A stretch of DNA of 61,190 nucleotides, filler included, from Ionaspis alba (lineage: Eukaryota), in NCBI GenBank assembly GCA_964255285.1. It is 7 parts of 7 records of this genome, joined end to end, with 100 filler letters (N's around TTAATTAATTAA, not from the genome) between each part and the next. Parts side by side here need not be neighbours in the genome. Positions count along the whole stretch, not along the records: positions 52,547 to 61,190 come from CAXUUL010000721.1; 6 more parts are not named here. The stretch is one strand, 5' to 3'. The translations under genes and the position numbers were made by a program. The notes below the pieces were generated by a model. It was not told where the DNA came from, made no database searches, and saw nothing but the letters and a program-made list of their open reading frames with translations. Positions 5,782 through 60,983 of this stretch are shown here, one piece after another (within the stretch, counting starts at the first letter, position 1; each line of letters opens with the position of its first letter).

Positions 5782-8071
5782 TCAAACCCCACCTCCCGGG
5801 CCATTCCCACTTCCTCCTCCTCCCCCACTCCCCTTACCACTCTGATCCAACAAAAGCGTCGGCTTAATAATCCCCTCATCCAGCCTCTGAAACCAAGCCG
5901 CCGAATCATCCGTCCCCGTAAAGAACTCCCTCAACGCCCCCGTCGCCGTCATATGGCCCTCATGTCCCGCCTGCAACGGATGCGTACTTCCCGACGTCGG
6001 ATACGGATTCCTCATCCCATCCTCCCCAGATGGCGGAGGCGAAGGTCTCCGCTTCGGCGACCGACGCGGTGCAGCGGGGGGAAGATCGCTATCGGAGTAG
6101 AGGTCTTCGTCACTGGGGGTGTTGGAGCCTTTGCCCAGGAAGGGCTGGTCGGCAGTGGGGATGCGGTCTCGCTGATTATGAATCGAGTTGTGGCGGCCGG
6201 AATTGGTCGATGTGGGTCTGATCGGCGGACTGGGATTGTTGCTCCCGCTGCTATAACTGCCTTCCCAAGCTCCGCCATTACCGTTGGCACGAGCATCGAC
6301 TTTTCCGAGACGCACGTTGAAGTCGTTACGAGAAGGCGTGTGGCCGAAAGCGTTGCCGCTGCGTTTGTAGTAGGTCCCGTTTGTGGTCGTTTCGATGTCG
6401 AATTCGTCGTCTGAGTCGACTTCTTCGACGACGCCCGTGCGGATGCCCATGATTTCGAGCATGCGGGCTGTGGTTCCGCCGAAGATGATTACGGTAAGCA
6501 CGACGACGACGAGAACGGTGGCGCGCAGGGTGCTGACGTTTTCGTCGCTGCCCACTATGCCTTCCGCGAGGGCGACACCGACTGCTCCACGTAGTCCTGC
6601 CCAGAAGAGCATCACTTGGTATGAGTGTGGGAGTTCTTCCGCGCCGGCCATCTCTCCTCGGCGTTTGGCGCGGAATCGGATGGTCCAGTTTATTAGTTTG
6701 GAAAGGGGAAACACTGCGACGTATCTCGCGACGCATATTCCTATTGTGGCGATTAGGATAAACAGTGGATTGAAATATAGCTTCTTCTCAGTGAAGAGCG
6801 TAATTCCTAGGTAAATGAAGATGAAATTCTCGGATAATTGTGCGAGGACTTGGAAGATGTATTTGGTGGTCAGCTGTGTCCGTCGTGACATGTTGTAATA
6901 AGCGTAGTGCTTCAATGTTATGCCGCAGAATAAAAGAGCCACAATACCTAGAGCATGTCAGTTCTCTGAGAACACTCACCTCGCGTAGATATTTACCAGA
7001 CATGCCAATCCCATTGGCAAAGAAATAGCTCGCATATGCGATAAGAATGACAAGGCAGCTCTCGATCTTTGGGAATCGTCGCACGTGCGTGAACTTCAGC
7101 CCCAGAGTCGCCAGGACACCTACCACGACTCCTATGACAAGGCTCCCAAAGAACACGAGCAAGAAGACTCCTATGGCCTCGAAGAAGGTAAGAACGCTTA
7201 AGTGGCTCTGTTTCTGCGGAGATTTCGTCGGCACGTACTTCTGCGCCGTCTCGAACAGCACGATGGCAATAGCATCATTCAGAATAGATTCGCCAAAGAT
7301 CACGGTATATAGCTTCGGATCCACCTTATAAGCATTGAAGATAGCGAGGATAGTCACTGGATCTGTCGCCGAAAGAGTCGCGCCGACGGAGAAAGCCTCC
7401 ACGAAAGAGATGGTGAATTCATCGATGGGAATGAGAGTCCAGAGATAGAGTATGACGCCCAGGACAATGGCTGAGATGAAGGTTCCCGCGAATGCGAAGG
7501 TCAAGATGGTGCCGATGTTGCGGAAGAAATTGGCTTGGTGCAATTCGTAGCCTGAGGCGAGGATGATGGGCGGAAGCAGGAGATTGAAAAAGAATTGATA
7601 GTTGAAGGTCACGGCGCTTTGGATGAAGTTATTGGATGTCAGTCGTATTATGAGGCCCACCACCATGCCTACAGTGTCGCAGTCAGTTTTGAGGTACTGT
7701 TTGTGTGATGATATAGCGAGTGGAGTCCGCTGGGTACATACCACCAAAGATGGAGAGAACCGTCTCATGCACAGCTTGTATCTTCTTCTGTTGTAGCATG
7801 TAACTCGTAAAGAGAGCGACGATGAGGAGCATTATGAGTATGAAGAGGGCCAAGGACGACGAGACTTCTTTCTGTCCTGCTTTCGGGGCTGAATGGTCAC
7901 CATCAGTATGTGTTTCTTCTCGAGTACACAGCTACTCACATCCATCTTCAGGCGCCGCATCTTGATCTCCTCGCTCTAAGCAGATGAATTAGCTCTCGAT
8001 TCCAGGTACCTTTTAACGGCGGAGATCGTACTGAGGAGCTCAAGGACGGTGTCCGTAATGACCGAGGCCAT
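5782..8071 (-). CDS. NHX1: Endosomal Na+(K+)/H+ exchanger (CPA1 family), multi-exon
   Basis: Motifs IQAVHETVLSIF, FFFNLLLPPIILASGY, LSATDPVTILAIF, FGESILNDAIAIVLF and WAGLRGAVGVALA. ATG at 8071 (MASVITDTVLELL) followed by short introns. The start position is less certain than the call. Confidence 0.93.
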
Positions 8072-8673: not shown

Positions 8674-8773
8674 NNNNNNNNNNNNNNNNNNNNNNNNNNN
8701 NNNNNNNNNNNNNNNNNTTAATTAATTAANNNNNNNNNNNNNNNNNNNNNNNNNNNNNNNNNNNNNNNNNNNN
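8674..8773. other. Artificial contig linker (N44-TTAATTAATTAA-N44)
   Basis: 100-nt N run with a stop-codon spacer, identical to five other linkers in the window. Confidence 0.99.
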
Positions 8774-17435: not shown

Positions 17436-17535
17436 NNNNNNNNNNNNNNNNNNNNNNNNNNNNNNNNNNNNNNNNNNNNTTAATTAATTAANNNNNNNNN
17501 NNNNNNNNNNNNNNNNNNNNNNNNNNNNNNNNNNN
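17436..17535. other. Artificial contig linker
   Basis: N run with TTAATTAATTAA. Confidence 0.99.
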
Positions 17536-26197: not shown

Positions 26198-26297
26198 NNN
26201 NNNNNNNNNNNNNNNNNNNNNNNNNNNNNNNNNNNNNNNNNTTAATTAATTAANNNNNNNNNNNNNNNNNNNNNNNNNNNNNNNNNNNNNNNNNNNN
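26198..26297. other. Artificial contig linker
   Basis: N run with TTAATTAATTAA. Confidence 0.99.
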
Positions 26298-34951: not shown

Positions 34952-35051
34952 NNNNNNNNNNNNNNNNNNNNNNNNNNNNNNNNNNNNNNNNNNNNTTAAT
35001 TAATTAANNNNNNNNNNNNNNNNNNNNNNNNNNNNNNNNNNNNNNNNNNNN
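34952..35051. other. Artificial contig linker
   Basis: N run with TTAATTAATTAA. Confidence 0.99.
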
Positions 35052-43701: not shown

Positions 43702-43801
43702 NNNNNNNNNNNNNNNNNNNNNNNNNNNNNNNNNNNNNNNNNNNNTTAATTAATTAANNNNNNNNNNNNNNNNNNNNNNNNNNNNNNNNNNNNNNNNNNN
43801 N
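43702..43801. other. Artificial contig linker
   Basis: N run with TTAATTAATTAA. Confidence 0.99.
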
Positions 43802-52446: not shown

Positions 52447-52546
52447 NNNNNNNNNNNNNNNNNNNNNNNNNNNNNNNNNNNNNNNNNNNNTTAATTAATT
52501 AANNNNNNNNNNNNNNNNNNNNNNNNNNNNNNNNNNNNNNNNNNNN
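52447..52546. other. Artificial contig linker
   Basis: N run with TTAATTAATTAA. Confidence 0.99.
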
Positions 52547-54747: not shown

Positions 54748-55517
54748 TTAGGATGACTCCGATTGTACAGTTTGCTATAGGCAAAGGTGTCAGTAGCTTA
54801 CCTGTGGAGCGGTCTTGGAGGAACTTACCACCAGCCAGTCCATGCCCTCGTTGACTCCTCTGCCATCGACAGCAGAACACGCCATAATACTCCAGTTCCT
54901 ATCTCGAAGCTCTCCTAACCTTAAAGCCTCTGAAATGTCCCCTGCTCCCTTCGCCCCTGGTTGATCTTGTTTGTTGGCAAAGACCAACAACGCCGCCTCT
55001 TTCAGTTCATCTTCATTCAGCATCGCTGCAAGCTCTTCCGAAGCTGTACCTAGTCGATCGATATCCGTGGAGTCGATAACGAATATTACGGCCGCAGTGT
55101 TGGCATAGTAGCATCTCCAGTATGGTCTTATGGAAGTCTGACCACCAAGATCCTGACATACTCATTAGCAACTGCTGCCTATAGCTAATGGCCTGACATC
55201 TCATACCCAGACATTGAAATTGAGATTCTTATAAGTTACGGACTCGACATTGAAGCCTATCGTCGGTATCGTGGTGACAACCTCGCCTATCTGAGAACGA
55301 TTCAATCAGTGTACTGATCCAGTTCTCTCTTCTTCGTATTGGCCACACCTTCAGCCTATAGAGTAGAGTCGTCTTTCCAGCATTATCCTATCGCTCGGAT
55401 TAGCTACGCAACGTATGCCCATTGGGATCTGAAGCATACCAAACCTAATATTAATATTCTGATCTCTTTCTTGGTCCATAAGAGACCCGAGAGTATCCGC
55501 GACACTGAACCGCCCAT
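54748..55517 (-). CDS. ARL1: ADP-ribosylation factor-like GTPase Arl1, 5 exons
   Basis: [57 protein letters not shown]...|[19 protein letters not shown]...[11 protein letters not shown]; myristoylation-type MG start. Confidence 0.97.
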
Positions 55518-55525
55518 CTTAGAGC

Positions 55526-55625
55526 NNNNNNNNNNNNNNNNNNNNNNNNNNNNNNNNNNNNNNNNNNNNNNNNNNNNNNNNNNNNNNNNNNNNNNNNNNN
55601 NNNNNNNNNNNNNNNNNNNNNNNNN
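55526..55625. other. Scaffold gap flanked by an identical 55-bp direct duplication (assembly overlap artefact)
   Basis: 55471-55525 equals 55626-55680. This gap has no TTAATTAATTAA spacer. Confidence 0.9.
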
Positions 55626-56481
55626 TTGGTCCATAAGAGACCCGAGAGTATCCGCGACACTGAACCGCCCATCTTAGAGCTCCGGGTTATGTGCGTTGGT
55701 TATAAACGGGTCGGAGGCTGTAAAACAATAACTGAATGAAAGAATGTAACTCGATTTGAAAGCCAGGTGCTGTCCGGGGTTGCGTCGGGCGTGCTATTTC
55801 TCCTCTTTTGTGGGCTTGAGCAGTGCGTGTAGCTGGTCTCTGACGTATAACTTCACCTATTCGTCTTCACTACCATCTCGGTCATATCGTAAGAAGGCCG
55901 AATCCATATCGGAGCCGTAGATTTACCGCTTCCGTGCATTGGGCACATGCCTCGGGTCGTCCCGAGGACCTACTTCCGCCAACTTTTCGCGACGTCTCTC
56001 GCTTTGTTTGCTTCACCATCGCGAGCCGAGCTGAAAGCCACAATATAGTACCACCACTGCCATCAATGATTCAGGGGCACCTGGCGGCTTCAGCTTCGCG
56101 ATACTATCACCAACTCGGCAGATGGCGGTTCTTGTCGAATGTGATGTGAATCTTGGCTCACATCCGCTCATGCCGCTTTCGCTCAGACCTCGAGCGATGG
56201 CGTGTTGCATGCTTTCACAGCTGAGAGTAGGACGGTTGCCACTATATCACGAGGATTGGAAGAGTACCAAATCAGATACGATATGTTTCTGAATTCCGTC
56301 TTGGTATGGGCTTGGAAATATTCTGCCTTGTCGTTACGTCCCGCCATGTCGCTTCTATTTAACATGGCTACTTTTTCGTGCTTTTCCTTCCGTTTGGGCT
56401 CTCCACCAGACAAGCAAGATATCAAAATCATCTATAATCACTCTGAAAACGTGACACTCGTACGCAATCGTGCTCGTACCG

Positions 56482-59400
56482 ATGGCTTCGACAGGTCCTC
56501 ACCCACCTGGCGGCCCTATCCCCACGAACCCGACTCATGCTCCTAACCCTCCCGCGTCGTCAGGGTCGAATACCACCGGAGGTACGGGTGCAACACCATC
56601 AGGTTCTGAAGCAGATCCCATTGCCACCAAGCCAACTACTTTTGAGCAACTTCTGGTCAAAGTCAAGAGCACCAATGCCACTTCTACAGACAAAATCCCC
56701 GTAGATGTCTCATTCGATCGACTGGTCACGATCAATGCCCAATCGGAGGAAAGCAAGGGCCAAGATGTCACCATCCGCGATACCTTACGTTTCAATCTTT
56801 CTGAAAATCTTAGTGGCGAAGCTACCTTGTCCGATGTCATTTACCCGTCTTCCCTCACTGTAGAGGTGCTGGGCGGTGACGGCATACCAAAGGTCCGGAA
56901 AGATGCGAAAGTAACCAAAGAGAATACGGAAGGCTTGTCCATCGACCTTACACAAGCGGATGTTGACACCATCCTGAAGACAGCGAAACCTCCGCCTAAG
57001 CAAGATTCCATTATTGAACGACCAGCTCTTTTTGTCGAGATTGCTATGAACAGTAAAGCACCTAAAGCTAACTTTGCCAATGCCAATCTCCTGGTTGCTC
57101 CACTCCGATTCGGCGAACAGGGGGCCGATTGGACTCGTGATGGGTTTGCAAGCATCCTGAAAAGTGACAAAGGGCCCATCACGATCGCCCAGCCTTTGAA
57201 GACTCCTCTCCCAGTTGGTATAGCAAGCCTTCCATGGACAGAAAGTCGAGTCGCAGTCGATGGCAGGTTCACAGCCAAGTTCATTGCTGGCAATTACAAT
57301 GCTTGGGCCTGGTTGCTCACGGGGGCTCGCCCCGACAGCATGCTCGGAGTCATAGCAGATGACAACCTCAAAGAAGACAGTGTACAGGTTCGTTCCATCA
57401 TTCTACCATCAGCTCCTGCCCCATCGGACTCGGGCTCGGGACAGGGGGACGACAAAGGGACACCGGCAGGTGGAGACTCAGGAGAGTGCCATTGCGATTC
57501 GGGTACTCGAGTACCAGCGGTTGTTTCTGAAACGGAGCTTGCCAACAATCCTGACGTCTACACGGAAGATCCGGGGTCCTTTTGCAAGCCTTTCTCTAAT
57601 CCAGAGCGTATCCTGTCGGAACGGTCGTTCTACAGCATCTTGAGGATTGAGCAGCCTGTTCTGTCCGCCTCGGCCAGTTCTTTACTGAGGAATCCTCTAC
57701 TGTTGGATCTCGATCCTGTTAGGTTCAATCCAGCTGTATCGCATCTCGCTGATGCTCAGCCAAGAACCCTTGCCTTCAACTTGGGTACCATCAATAGGGC
57801 AAATTTGATACCAAAATTCGGTGGCATTTGGGACGTTCTCGAAGGGGGCCGTTACGAGATGAGCGCGAAGCATCCAATGCAGTGGGAAGGAGACAGTCTG
57901 AAATATCAAGCAACAACGGTAGCCGTGGGCCATATCCTTGAATTCAGGCTGAGAACCAGAAGCAACGGATACAGTCTTGGGGGTGTGGCTAAAACGATGA
58001 CACTAGCTCCTAGACAAACAAAGCGTATGGCACACGCCGAATATACCACTTTGATAAACAGCCACTAACGTGGAGAACCCAGGTATTGAAAAGATCGAAT
58101 GGGCGCGCACGGAGCGAGCCGCGAGGATCGAGAGAGGGCAGCTGACTGATGCTACCAATGATTCGATGACTCACGATACATCCTATCAGGACGCCGTAGG
58201 AGCGACTCTGAACGAATGGTCACAAGGTAGTTCGTCTAGTAGTGTGACTTCCGCAGCTGCTGGAGGTGGCCTGGCTCTTGGTCCTGTTGTTATCGGCGGC
58301 GGTGTCGCGACATCCTCATCGAAGTCCTCCAGCCAACAGCGTGGAGGCAGGGATACAACCGCTTCGGAAGAATCGCAGTGGCGTGATGCAGTTCGAAGGC
58401 ATGGCGATGCATTGAGGAAGCAGGAATCAATGGTCGTGCAGGAAGTGACAGAAAGCGAGACTGTGACAGGTAATAAGGCACATACTGTTCCTAAAGCTGC
58501 GCATATCTGACCTTTGAGCAGGGACGACGGAGGTCATTCGCAACATAAACTACGCCCACAGCCTCACCGTTGTATACCACAACATCCTCCGCCACTTGCG
58601 AGTGGATACCGAGTTTGCTGCTGTCAGGGAATGCTTGTTCGTTCCGTTGGCAATGAAGCCGTTCACGCAAGAACGCGCATTGAGATGGAAAGAGACGCTC
58701 GCGAGAGTGCTCAGGAATCGCAAATATTCTCGTGCTATGACTTACATCAAAGATGTCGTTACAAACTTTGCAAACTCCTCTATCCCTCCCGGTCGAAGGT
58801 CTGATCATCCAATTCGATCCCTTTGGGGTTCTATCTACATCGAGATCGGTATTCCTCGACCCAGCGACAGTGCAGATGGCAAATATGATGCAACAAACTG
58901 GGCCCGGCTTCTGCCATTTCTCCCACTGCCAGCTCTTTCCATCTGGCAACAACTTCAAGTTATGGTTGAAAGCCTTAAGGACCAGGCCTTCCAGAAACAA
59001 TACGCCCCAGCGATCGCAAGGAAATGGTGCGACCACCTCCAAATCAAAGACAGCAACAAGGTTCTTACAGCAGATTTCACTCTCGCTACGGAATATCGTT
59101 TCAACGGGCGGGTCCGTGTAGACTTCACGGCTGACACTGAAGGTGTGACTCGGGAAACTCTCAGCAACATTACTATCTCGGCGCTCGATCCACTTCTACC
59201 AGGTTCCATAGCCAACGTCAAAAGTTTGAGCTACAATTACGAGACTGATTACGAACGCGGAAGCGTCTCCTTAAATCGTGGCACGGCTGATTTGATCTCT
59301 TCCGATCTCGGCACCGTCGATCTAAGTGGAGCAAAATTCAGCTCCGTCCCGTCGGCGTATGAAAGAACGAACGTTCAAGACGAGCTCAGGTTTGCGGTCA

Positions 59401-60983
59401 AGGATCTAGTCGATCATCTCAACGAATATGTTGAGTACTACCACAAGGCCATCTGGTGGAACATGGACCGTGATCGTCTCTTCATGCTCATTGACGGCTT
59501 CACAGTTCCCAAACTTGACAAGGCTGTAAGCATTGCCAACGTTGTTGAGAGAGACCCCATCGCTTTCGCAGGCAACTCACTCGTCTTTCGTGTATCCGCA
59601 GGAGTCTTCATTGGCTCCAAAGATCCGAAACTCGAAGATCCCGAGGCTTTGTTCAACCATTATAACACGGGCAAGGGGGTGTCCGCGCCGATGCATATCA
59701 GTCTTCCTACTGATGGGCTATATGCCCAGACTATCATGGATGATTGCAACGCTCTTGAGGAACATTATGGAAACCATGACTGGGCATTGAACGACCCTGA
59801 CCCTGAACTTGGTCCGCTGGATCCTAGCCTACTTACGACTCGCCGAGCAGATCCACCGAAGACAGATCCCACACCCTTCCCATCCACGATCATCAATCTG
59901 TCGAACGCCACACCCGCTCCTGGACCCCAAGGGGTGGCTGGTGCTCTGAATGCTGTGCAGAACGCCAATGCGTTCCGTGACATGGCTGGACTTGCTGGAA
60001 CGCAGCAATTAGCTACAGCGGGACTGACGGCCGCTACTTCGCTCGCCACTAGCTTTGGCGCATCTGCTGCAGCACTTAAGATGGCCGACACCGCTGGCAA
60101 GCAGCAGGCTGTCGCGGACGCTGACAAGAAGCTGGCTTCCATTGCTCGTGCAAAGGACAAGCAACTTATTCCTAACGCTGAAGCTGAGAAACAAGCCGTC
60201 CAAGTGCTCCAGGACATGTCTGGCTCCCAGCCCGCCAAAGCCCCTCACGAGGACCCAGCCATTCAAAGCATCATCAAATCAGCCAAAGAAGCATCTGACA
60301 ATGGTGCTCCGACGTCTCTCGAGGCTTCGACCACAGAAGGTTCCGTGCTTCTCAACTTTGGAATGCCCGAAAGTGCTATTTTAGCATCTAACGTGGCTGC
60401 GAACGGGGCAAGGCGACCGCGTCCAGACTTCCAAACTTTCCAGAGAGAAGATTGGGACTATGCTTCGCATCCCAATAGCACAGAAGTTCTCAGGGCTCTC
60501 AATGACGCTTGGGTCAACAACAGCGCGTTCTCTAACACGTGCACCATGCGTATCTCCCGCGGCTTGAATTACTCTGGCGTTCTCCTGCCGAAGCCCGGCA
60601 AGTTCAACGGCCTTCTGACCATCATCTGCAAAGACGGCCGTCCATACGCTATCCGCGTCAAGGAAATGCGCAAATATCTCACAACCATCTGGGGCGAGCC
60701 TGACTTCGACATCAAAAACAAAAGATCTGGCGAGGATTTTAACCCTGCCGATCATCCTGAGCTAGTCAATCATAACGGCATCATCGCCTTTGATATTGCG
60801 TTTGGTGGTACTGCGCCGGCATCGGGCCATTTCGATATCTGGAATGGGGTGATGTTCTCGCATGAGTCGTCGGAGCCCGAGGCTGGAGCGACAGATCCGA
60901 AGGATTATTGGAAGTTGGCGACGAGAATCAGTTTGTGGTATCTGCCCATGAGTCCGGATGTGGAGGCGCCAGAGGACATTTAG
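56482..60983 (+). CDS. Large three-exon protein (about 1463 aa) with a toxin-scaffold-like central region and a C-terminal Tae4-like (T6SS amidase effector, NlpC/P60 papain-like) peptidoglycan amidase domain
   Basis: Exons 56482-58024, 58083-58469 and 58522-60983 are joined in frame by introns GTATGG..CTAAC..CAG and GTAATA..CTGAC..CAG. The C-terminus reads RPDF...FSNTCTMRISRGLNYSG...KDGRPYAIRVKEMRKYL...GEPD...NGIIAFDI...SGHFDIWNG...SLWYL. Confidence 0.82.

What the first reader, a model, noticed from the sequence alone, without database searches (positions are those of the whole stretch)
60411..60983. Bacterial T6SS amidase effector (Tae4)-like domain in an intron-containing fungal gene: candidate domesticated antibacterial toxin
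Seen in the sequence: the last ~190 aa carry, in order, RPxF, NTCTMRISRGLNYSG (Cys codon 60540-60542), KDGRPYAIRVKEMRKYL, GEP, GIIAF, SGHFDIWNG (His codon 60828-60830) and a terminal LWYL. Established: this is the motif order of the Tae4 family (Pfam PF14113), papain-like NlpC/P60 amidases. They cut peptidoglycan peptide stems with a Cys-His dyad and are delivered between Gram-negative bacteria by type VI secretion. Horizontal capture of tae genes by eukaryotes ('dae' genes, for example in ticks; Chou et al. 2015) is known. I am not aware of a characterised fungal case, or of one fused to a >1200-aa carrier. Inference: fungi have no peptidoglycan, so an intact dyad suggests a weapon against bacteria, a tool for managing bacterial or cyanobacterial associates, or a repurposed substrate.
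Basis: partly seen in the sequence, partly recalled or inferred. Interest (0 to 1): 0.92.

Follow-up and report, generated by a model that had tools for sequence, protein, structure and literature searches.

The report
Fungal gene ending in Tae4 amidase
A fungus carries an intron-bearing gene for a 1,463-residue protein that ends in a bacterial cell-wall-cutting enzyme, and the whole protein, not only its tip, belongs to a large unnamed family of mostly bacterial proteins that carry interchangeable cell-wall enzymes.

Summary

The gene has three exons, 56482-58024, 58083-58469 and 58522-60983, giving 1,463 aa. It lies in a fungal genome. Its neighbours are fungal, an independent contig bridges the N gap, and depth is even. 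Two distant relatives share intron 1.

The interpretation needs correcting. The 1,273-aa "carrier" is not fungal. It is about 50% identical to an unannotated, mainly prokaryotic family (2,103 representatives at E<=0.001). These proteins carry swappable C-terminal enzymes: 55 tail clusters, including GH25, DUF2272, M15 and beta-lactamase-like domains. Seven fungal carriers form one clade, so the scaffold itself was probably acquired from bacteria.

Every Tae4-tailed carrier I found is fungal or intron-bearing. Their Tae4 domains form one group, and the nearest relatives are stand-alone proteins of about 162 aa on prokaryote-like contigs.

Both parts are under purifying selection. No signal peptide, known secretion domain or immunity gene was found, and the carrier core matches no known fold or family.

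The most likely role is antibacterial peptidoglycan hydrolysis. How the protein is delivered is unknown, and expression could not be tested.

The parts
56482..58024 (+). Exon 1 (codons 1-514 plus the first base of codon 515). It holds a low-complexity N-terminus, then beta-sandwich modules (aa ~50-310), then the first conserved core motifs.
   Evidence: ATG at 56482. Donor GTATGG at 58025. Frame check. Model m5d7649d6958f has pLDDT above 90 for aa 50-310. Pilin/CnaB/transthyretin-like matches: Foldseek E 4.5e-6, VIA Z no higher than 7.8.
58025..58082 (+). Intron 1, 58 nt, phase 1, GTATGG...CACTAAC...CAG.
   Evidence: An intron at the same codon and in the same phase is present in L055 and L038.
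58083..58469 (+). Exon 2 (129 codons including split codons): a Gly/Ser-rich segment flanked by conserved charged strands.
   Evidence: Consensus AGG.G...G..V.GGG...G.A.S.S.Q.GGR in A3/A4.
58470..58521 (+). Intron 2, 52 nt, phase 1, GTAATA...ATCTGAC...CAG.
   Evidence: It is absent from L055, where the match is continuous from residue 516 to 1451.
58522..60983 (+). Exon 3 with the stop codon: second half of the carrier core, a disordered stretch, a long helical linker and the Tae4 domain.
   Evidence: Model ma30642a67a4d has mean pLDDT 81.
58524..59813 (+). Well-folded carrier core (exon-3 residues 1-430) with invariant F47, G102, P113, R210, D324, S336, G350, N351, P395, G398, A401, C408, E412 and W420.
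   Evidence: A3 invariant columns. pLDDT above 90 over residues ~40-380. No convincing match in PDB or BFVD.
59829..60299 (+). Disordered stretch (exon-3 residues 436-492), then an Ala/Gly/Thr-rich long helix (484-545) and further helices to residue 592. This is the conserved AFRDMAGLAGTQ linker that precedes the variable cargo.
   Evidence: Secondary structure and pLDDT. Consensus. A non-significant PHROG holin hit at residues 478-535, E 0.24.
60411..60953 (+). Tae4-fold amidase domain (exon-3 residues 630-810). The Pfam envelope is 60528-60863.
60540..60542 (+). Catalytic Cys codon (TGC) in NTCTMR.
   Evidence: It aligns to the Cys of 4hfk/4hff. The Cys is kept in 7 of 8 fungal tails.
60828..60830 (+). 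Catalytic His codon (CAT) in SGHFDIWNG.
   Evidence: It aligns to the His of 4hfk/4hff. It is invariant in 8 of 8 fungal tails.
55471..55680 (.). Scaffold joint: 100 N (55526-55625) flanked by an identical 55-nt repeat. This is an assembly artefact, not a break in linkage.
   Evidence: X1 contig record 1 joins 55525 to 55678 with 6 letters between.

Best explanation
This is a nuclear gene of a filamentous ascomycete. It encodes a 1,463-aa member of a large, so far unnamed, mainly prokaryotic 'carrier-cargo' protein family. The first ~1,270 residues are the conserved carrier: a low-complexity N-terminus, beta-sandwich modules, a strongly conserved core of unknown fold, and a long Ala/Gly-rich helical linker. 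The last ~190 residues are the exchangeable cargo. Here the cargo is a Tae4-type papain-like peptidoglycan amidase with its Cys and His nucleophile pair intact.

Shown: the scaffold entered fungi from prokaryotes. In my sample this looks like a single entry, and the gene then acquired spliceosomal introns. It has been kept under purifying selection in at least four named genera of different fungal classes. The Tae4 cargo of all fungal members has one origin. Its nearest relatives are small stand-alone Tae4 proteins on prokaryote-like metagenome contigs.

Inferred: the protein cuts the gamma-D-glutamyl-mDAP bond of bacterial peptidoglycan and serves the fungus against bacteria, whether competitors, invaders or associates. 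The carrier provides targeting or passage to the wall without any dedicated secretion machine, because it works in hosts as different as Actinomycetota, Bacteroidota, Chloroflexota and fungi.
For: Tae4 identity.

Gene model and fungal residence:
- Introns.
- Neighbours with Fungal_trans, DUF7730 and Arf domains.
- GC 0.51-0.54, like the flanks.
- A 55-nt overlap at the N gap.
- An X1 contig bridges the gap, with depth 112 upstream and 107-122 over the gene.

Carrier family:
- 347 long proteins with E<=0.001 among 7,999 scored. The best 120 listed are 48-62% identical over 68-99% of exon 3, and named ones include Streptomyces, Nocardioides, Ornithinimicrobium, Arthrobacter, Vicinamibacteria and Deltaproteobacteria.
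- 2,103 representatives at E<=0.001 and 533 at E<=1e-30.
- 16 of 16 confirmed genome loci are prokaryotic, spanning about 9 phyla.

Polymorphic cargo:
- 275 tails fall into 55 clusters.
- Pfam names include GH25, DUF2272, Peptidase_M15_4, Beta-lactamase2, OmpA, NLPC_P60, Peptidase_C70, Tyrosinase, PETase-like and DUF4056.

Origins:
- Single fungal clade: 7 of 7 fungal rows form one side of a branch among 145 carriers, support 100.
- Single Tae4 fusion: 8 of 8 carrier-fused Tae4 domains form one split against 70 prokaryote-like Tae4s, SH-aLRT 97.
- Of 80 metagenome Tae4 loci kept, 2 are carrier-fused and both carry the fungal intron.

Selection: L038 versus L055 gives pS 0.77 (saturated), with pN 0.10 for the carrier and 0.22 for Tae4. 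Cys is kept in 7 of 8 tails, His in 8 of 8, and an acidic residue at His+12 in 8 of 8.

T6SS independence: TssC was found in 1 of 5 carrier-bearing genomes.

Tae4 bond specificity is as quoted in PMC7641422 (passages).
Against: - No enzymatic or expression data. No RNA run is listed for this stretch, so splicing rests on sequence logic and on intron conservation.
- No signal peptide in the fungal protein. Only 3 of 152 prokaryotic carriers have a hydrophobic N-terminus. How the enzyme would reach peptidoglycan is therefore unknown.
- The Asp that completes the Tae4 triad (position recalled from the literature, about His+11) aligns to His in 6 of 8 fungal tails, so the active site is not textbook.
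- Trematosphaeria has Ser at the Cys column.
- Some family cargoes (tyrosinase, PETase-like, Peptidase_C70) are not wall enzymes.
- No conserved immunity gene lies next to the prokaryotic carriers.
- No prokaryotic carrier with a Tae4 tail was found, so where the fusion arose is open.
- The direction of transfer is inferred from distribution. The trees are unrooted.
Confidence: 0.6

Rival explanations
1. A small bacterial T6SS effector gene (tae4) was captured by a fungus and fused there to a pre-existing fungal protein of more than 1,200 aa, giving a dae-like domesticated effector on a fungal carrier.
For: The nearest non-fused relatives of the Tae4 domain are stand-alone ORFs of about 162 aa on prokaryote-like contigs, at 42-46% identity. 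No prokaryotic carrier-Tae4 fusion was seen among 275 tails or 80 metagenome loci. The cargo could therefore have been joined to the carrier inside a fungus.
Against: The carrier is not fungal in origin. There are 2,103 representatives, and every named non-fungal member is prokaryotic. Only one small fungal clade exists. The carrier family swaps cargo as a rule, so a prokaryotic donor that already carried Tae4 is at least as likely.
Confidence: 0.12
2. The family is not an exported toxin. It is a cell-autonomous lysis or defence module: a sensor-like scaffold, a membrane-active helix and an endolysin-type enzyme acting from inside the producer, as in abortive infection. The fungal copies have been repurposed, for example against endohyphal bacteria or on a non-peptidoglycan amide substrate.
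For: Signal peptides are absent (3 of 152). The cargo classes mirror phage endolysins: muramidase, amidase or endopeptidase, and M15 peptidase. The genes are solitary and sit beside integrase, IstB, DruA, Abi_2, HSDR_N and TraG genes. The Ala/Gly-rich helix just before the cargo gives a weak holin hit, E 0.24, not significant.
Against: No PADLOC match. No hydrophobic segment reaches a transmembrane-like score; the maximum Kyte-Doolittle 19-residue mean is 1.54. Self-lysis cannot apply in a fungus that has no peptidoglycan, yet the Tae4 active site is conserved there. The tyrosinase and esterase cargoes do not fit lysis.
Confidence: 0.18
3. The segment is bacterial contamination or a chimeric scaffold joined to fungal DNA across the 100-N gap.
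For: A 100-N gap (55526-55625) separates the gene from the rest of the window. The protein's closest annotated relatives outside fungi are bacterial.
Against: There are two spliceosomal introns with fungal branch sites, one of them shared with L038 and L055. The 55 nt on either side of the gap are identical. An independent contig spans the joint, and depth is even across it. GC matches the flanks. The closest named orthologues come from fungal genome assemblies with contigs of up to megabase size.
Confidence: 0.02
4. The gene is a decaying relic of a transfer with no present function in the fungus.
For: No expression data. There is no signal peptide. One orthologue (Trematosphaeria) lacks the Cys at the aligned column.
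Against: The 1,463-codon frame is intact. Full-length orthologues are intact in several fungal classes. pN is far below the saturated pS. The His and the acidic residue are invariant.
Confidence: 0.06

Closest known systems
Tae4 (type VI amidase effector 4, Pfam PF14113; structures 4hfk, 4hff, 4j30, 4jur, 6ijf; Serratia Ssp1/2 4bi3, 4bi4)
   Different: Only 22-26% identical. It is the C-terminal domain of a 1,463-aa protein rather than a free protein of about 160 aa. It lies in a eukaryote with no T6SS. No Tai4-like immunity gene was seen. The residue aligned to the third catalytic Asp is His, followed by Glu.
Dae proteins (domesticated amidase effectors of ticks and other eukaryotes, Chou et al. 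2015). That paper was not held, so its content is recalled. Hayes et al., bioRxiv 10.1101/2020.04.10.036376, was read in passages.
   Same: A bacterial peptidoglycan amidase gene resident in a eukaryotic genome, with introns and under purifying selection.
   Different: Dae proteins are small and, from recall, carry eukaryotic signal peptides. This protein has no signal peptide and keeps a 1,270-aa carrier of prokaryotic type. The host is a fungus.
Bacterial polymorphic toxin systems (conserved N-terminal trafficking region plus variable C-terminal toxin; concept recalled from Zhang, Aravind et al. 2012)
   Same: One conserved N-terminal region with at least 55 unrelated C-terminal tail clusters. 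A tandem pair with different tails occurs in L013.
   Different: No known trafficking domain (Rhs, LXG, PAAR, filamentous haemagglutinin, MuF) was detected by Pfam or NCBIfam. No consistent adjacent immunity gene. The carrier is unusually conserved, at about 50% identity across phyla.
GH25 muramidase transfers across domains, including to fungi (Metcalf et al. 2014, PMC4241558; passages read), laterally acquired Tae4 in Giardia muris (PMC7641422; passages read), and NlpC/P60 genes in Trichomonas (10.1101/320382; search listing only)
   Same: Antibacterial wall hydrolases that have moved from bacteria into eukaryotes.
   Different: In the passages and listings I saw, those cases are described as the enzyme gene, with no large carrier mentioned. 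Here the delivery scaffold came too.

Membership tests
Tae4 (PF14113) | Profile match above Pfam's gathering score | tested here: met
   71.3 bits against 27, E 1e-19.
Tae4 (PF14113) | Tae4/NlpC-P60 papain-like fold | tested here: met
Tae4 (PF14113) | Catalytic Cys and His present at the aligned positions | tested here: met
   Alignment to 4hfk/4hff. Codons at 60540-60542 and 60828-60830. Conserved in fungal orthologues: Cys 7 of 8, His 8 of 8. Spatial adjacency was not measured.
Tae4 (PF14113) | Third catalytic residue (Asp, about 11 residues after His; position recalled from the literature) | tested here: inconclusive
   The aligned residue is His, followed by Glu. An acidic residue at His+12 is present in 8 of 8 fungal tails.
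Tae4 (PF14113) | Delivery by a type VI secretion system, and a cognate Tai4 immunity gene | tested here: not met
   The host is a fungus. The carrier family occurs in genomes where no TssC was found (found in 1 of 5). No downstream immunity gene lies within the window, which ends 207 nt after the stop.
Tae4 (PF14113) | Hydrolysis of the gamma-D-Glu-mDAP bond of peptidoglycan | not testable with these tools
   Needs a biochemical assay.
Dae (domesticated amidase effector) | Resident in a eukaryotic nuclear genome, with introns | tested here: met
Dae (domesticated amidase effector) | Eukaryotic secretion signal | tested here: not met
   The maximum Kyte-Doolittle 10-residue mean in the first 45 aa is -0.43. 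An upstream exon that I missed cannot be excluded.
Dae (domesticated amidase effector) | Purifying selection after transfer | tested here: met
   pN 0.22 against saturated pS 0.77 for the Tae4 part of L038 versus L055.
Dae (domesticated amidase effector) | Expression and antibacterial activity | not testable with these tools
   No RNA run is listed. Activity needs an assay.
Polymorphic toxin system | Conserved N-terminal region with variable C-terminal domains | tested here: met
   55 tail clusters among 275 proteins. At least 10 Pfam cargo types.
Polymorphic toxin system | Adjacent cognate immunity gene | tested here: inconclusive
   Small same-strand downstream ORFs occur in 4 of 10 loci (L001, L011, L015, L016), with no shared family.
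Polymorphic toxin system | Recognisable secretion or trafficking domain | tested here: not met
   Nothing found in Pfam, NCBIfam, PHROGs or PADLOC for the carrier. Signal-peptide-like N-terminus in 3 of 152.

The most novel reading that the evidence does not exclude
The ~1,270-aa carrier is a self-sufficient delivery vehicle that needs no secretion system. It takes a wall-degrading enzyme out of the producer and through a target bacterium's envelope. Because it needs no host machinery, it has spread between bacterial phyla, to an archaeal MAG and into fungi. In fungi, the Tae4-armed version is an inherited antibacterial weapon.
Probability: 0.25. Interest if true: 0.9.

Novelty: new variant of a known kind. 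Interest (0 to 1): 0.72.

Why it matters
If the enzyme is active, this would be a fungal counterpart of the tick dae genes. It would be an inherited antibacterial wall hydrolase in several classes of filamentous ascomycetes, relevant to fungus-bacterium competition, endohyphal bacteria and microbiome control.

The larger point is the scaffold. This protein family has more than two thousand 50%-identity representatives and is about 50% identical across phyla. It has no Pfam, NCBIfam, PHROG or PADLOC model and no structural relative found. It carries endolysin-type enzymes without a signal peptide. Working out how it delivers its cargo could reveal a new route of protein export or entry, and a modular platform for antibacterial enzymes.

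Tried and rejected
- Whole genome: none is held for this window.
- ESM Atlas on exon 1 and on the carrier core: no usable hit.
- NCBIfam, PHROGs and PADLOC on the carrier: only non-significant hits.
- Family profile (A2) against PDB sequences: only a low-complexity hit to huntingtin in the linker, plus noise.
- Foldseek against PDB for the carrier: weak PLAT/lipoxygenase-like rows, E above 0.03.
- BFVD viral structures: 0 matches at E<=0.001.
- The middle of the carrier (end of exon 1, exon 2, start of exon 3) was folded only in pieces cut at exon borders and came out poorly (pLDDT below 60). Its fold is therefore untested, not unknown.
- Stand-alone relatives of the Tae4 domain in the word-indexed protein search: none at 104-333 aa. 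Among longer proteins, only the window's own protein and P0255 were found. The metagenome DNA scan found them instead.
- RNA evidence: no RNA holder is listed.
- Pfam scan of 30 family members at E<=10: no recurrent hit in the core.
- Chou et al. 2015 could not be read.
- First fold submission was too large and was repeated with 48 and 45 rows.
- dN/dS proper could not be given because dS is saturated.

Full report
**Observation.**
- The last 190 residues match Pfam Tae4 (PF14113) at E 1e-19, 71.3 bits against a cut-off of 27.
- They also match the sequences of solved Tae4 proteins: 4hfk at E 2.4e-9, plus 4hff, 4j30 and 4jur. The Cys and His are aligned.
- An AlphaFold2 model of exon 3, built on a 48-row alignment, has pLDDT above 90 over this domain.
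- Foldseek's 11 hits at E<=0.001 are all Tae4/Tai4 or Serratia Ssp amidase entries, with TM up to 0.80 on the target.
- I could not measure the Cys-His distance because coordinates are not exposed.

**Gene model.** Three frames are joined by two short introns.
- Intron 1 is 58025-58082: GTATGG, branch CACTAAC, CAG.
- Intron 2 is 58470-58521: GTAATA, branch ATCTGAC, CAG.
- Splicing gives one open frame of 1,463 codons.
- Both junctions recreate motifs that are continuous in the unspliced prokaryotic relatives: APRQTKRI..I.W and E.V.G..EV.RN.NY.

**Is it really fungal DNA?** Yes.
- Upstream ORFs carry Fungal_trans, DUF7730 and Arf domains.
- GC is 0.51-0.54 over the gene and 0.43-0.52 over the preceding 16 kb.
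- A 100-N gap lies between the Arf gene and this gene. The 55 nt on each side are identical, which is the signature of two overlapping contig ends.
- In run X1, a 1,909-nt contig from an independent assembly crosses the joint. Contig depths are 112 upstream and 107-122 over the gene.
- Two metagenomic relatives (L055 and L038, 56-58% identical in protein) have an intron at exactly the same codon and phase as intron 1. L055 lacks intron 2.
- No RNA run was listed, so expression is untested.

**The carrier is not fungal.** Searching with exon 3 among longer proteins gave 347 hits at E<=0.001 among 7,999 candidates scored.
- The best 120 listed are 48-62% identical over 68-99% of exon 3. All but the top two cover only its carrier part.
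- Named hits include Streptomyces, Nocardioides, Ornithinimicrobium, Oryzobacter, Arthrobacter, Vicinamibacteria and Deltaproteobacteria. Four named fungi also appear: Trichoglossum, Purpureocillium, Cyphellophora and Capronia.
- The exhaustive representative search found 2,103 proteins at E<=0.001, 1,285 at E<=1e-10 and 533 at E<=1e-30. Nearly all match only residues 1 to ~615 of exon 3.
- A scan of species-representative genomes confirmed 16 loci from about nine phyla. One of them is a Nitrososphaeraceae archaeon MAG.
- No Pfam, NCBIfam, PHROG or PADLOC model covers the carrier.

**Cargo is exchangeable.** I cut 275 proteins after the carrier envelope and clustered the tails. This gave 55 clusters, with sizes 67, 38, 21, 17, 16, 13, 13, 12 and smaller.
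- Named cargoes are DUF2272, GH25 muramidase, Peptidase_M15_4, Beta-lactamase2, OmpA, NLPC_P60, Peptidase_C70, Tyrosinase, PETase-like, DUF4056 and Tae4.
- DUF2272 is a papain-like family that PMC10318531 groups with NlpC/P60 (passages read).
- Most cargoes act on the bacterial cell wall, but not all of them do.

**Context in prokaryotes.** The gene is usually solitary.
- Neighbours differ from locus to locus. They include an integrase, IstB, DruA, Abi_2, HSDR_N and a TraG-like coupling protein.
- L013 has two carriers in tandem.
- Five genomes hold one to three matches each.
- The T6SS sheath gene was found in 1 of the 5, though incomplete genomes cannot prove absence.
- Only 3 of 152 carriers have a hydrophobic N-terminus.

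**Structure of the carrier.**
- After ~50 disordered residues come beta-sandwich modules at aa 50-310, with pLDDT above 90. They resemble pilin, CnaB and transthyretin domains: Foldseek E 4.5e-6 but low TM, and VIA Z no higher than 7.8. That is a common arrangement, so it says little.
- The core in exon 3 (residues ~40-400) is confidently folded, but it has no convincing relative in PDB or BFVD.
- It is followed by a disordered stretch, a 60-residue Ala/Gly-rich helix and further helices before the cargo.
- The segment spanning the exon borders was folded only in pieces, so its fold is untested.

**Phylogeny.**
- In a FastTree of 145 carriers over 1,157 columns, the seven fungal rows form one clade with support 100. 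The rows are the window, Trichoglossum, Purpureocillium, Trematosphaeria, Rhexocercosporidium, Cyphellophora and Capronia.
- The nearest rows are P0146, P0005 and P0012.
- Rows I left out: near-duplicate members of the P0009 cluster, and partial proteins.
- Five of the seven fungal carriers have Tae4 tails. The two Chaetothyriales share a different tail with no Pfam name.
- For the Tae4 domain, a profile of seven tails found 185 metagenomic relatives, of which the best 80 were kept.
- The closest, at 42-46% identity, are ORFs of 162-163 aa on contigs of GC 0.58-0.67. Each is preceded by an unannotated ORF of ~220 aa, with no T6SS gene within 6 kb.
- In a 78-row tree (matches under 330 nt and duplicates dropped), all eight carrier-fused Tae4 domains form one split with SH-aLRT 97.
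- So in this sample there was one entry of the scaffold into fungi and one fusion with Tae4. Where that fusion happened is not settled.

**Selection.**
- Between L038 and L055, synonymous sites are saturated (pS 0.77), while pN is 0.10 in the carrier and 0.22 in Tae4.
- Across eight fungal tails, His is invariant and Cys is present in seven. Trematosphaeria has Ser at that column and a Cys one position later.
- An acidic residue follows 12 positions after His in all eight. The position aligned to the third catalytic Asp of E. cloacae Tae4 is His in six of them.

**Literature.** Searches found no paper on a fungal Tae4 or on this carrier.
- Related precedents are Tae4 in Giardia muris (PMC7641422, passages) and GH25 muramidase in fungi and other domains (PMC4241558, passages).
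- A further precedent is NlpC/P60 in Trichomonas (search listing only).
- The tick dae2 preprint was read in passages.
- Chou et al. 2015 was not held, so what I say of it is recalled.
- bioRxiv supplements are closed, and I opened no supplements. They could list fungal hits that I have not seen.

**Verdict.** The domain call is right and the gene is fungal. The story is the transfer and retention of a whole prokaryotic carrier-cargo gene, rather than a T6SS effector grafted onto a fungal protein. An antibacterial wall-hydrolase role is the best-supported function, at about 0.6. The delivery mechanism is the open and most interesting question.

Noticed in passing
window 8674-8773, 17436-17535, 26198-26297, 34952-35051, 43702-43801, 52447-52546: Six pairs of 44-N runs, each pair separated by 12 bases, recur about every 8,750 bases. 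They look like regular masking rather than assembly gaps, unlike the 100-N gap at 55526-55625.
   Followed up: no
protein cluster of P0009 (no window coordinates): A 1,637-aa carrier with an unnamed tail sits on many separately assembled contigs of nearly constant length (6,933, 6,993-6,994, 9,116-9,119 nt), with 19 cluster members. This could be one strain sequenced often, with breaks at flanking repeats, or a small replicon.
   Followed up: no
L002:8213-13801: A 1,863-aa carrier, 51% identical to the window's, lies in a MAG labelled Nitrososphaeraceae archaeon. Either the family reaches archaea or the contig is mis-binned.
   Followed up: no
L023:5278-5940, L057:5266-5952, L029:4236-4829, L021:5288-5938: The stand-alone ~162-aa Tae4 genes closest to the fungal domain are each preceded, on the same strand and within ~15 nt, by an ORF of 198-229 aa with no Pfam match. 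It could be an immunity or adaptor partner.
   Followed up: partly
window 59873-60107: In run X1, two contigs of 235 nt cover this stretch, at depths 84.6 and 51.5. One is identical to the window and the other has 15 differences. Two alleles, nuclei or strains differ in the helical linker region.
   Followed up: no
P0011 and P0027 (Cyphellophora, Capronia), last ~250 residues: The two Chaetothyriales carriers share a tail that is unrelated to Tae4 and has no Pfam match. The same tail is found on P0132, P0136 and P0201. The cargo therefore differs within the fungal clade.
   Followed up: partly
L011:8129-12625 and two other family members: Three of 30 carriers scanned have an N-terminal HHH_3 helix-hairpin-helix domain, best E 1.8e-16. 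That is an odd addition for a wall-enzyme carrier.
   Followed up: no
P0002 (Purpureocillium lavendulum, 1,860 aa): It is annotated 'acetyl esterase'. The Tae4 domain ends near residue 1,414 and ~450 further residues follow. This is probably a merged gene model.
   Followed up: no
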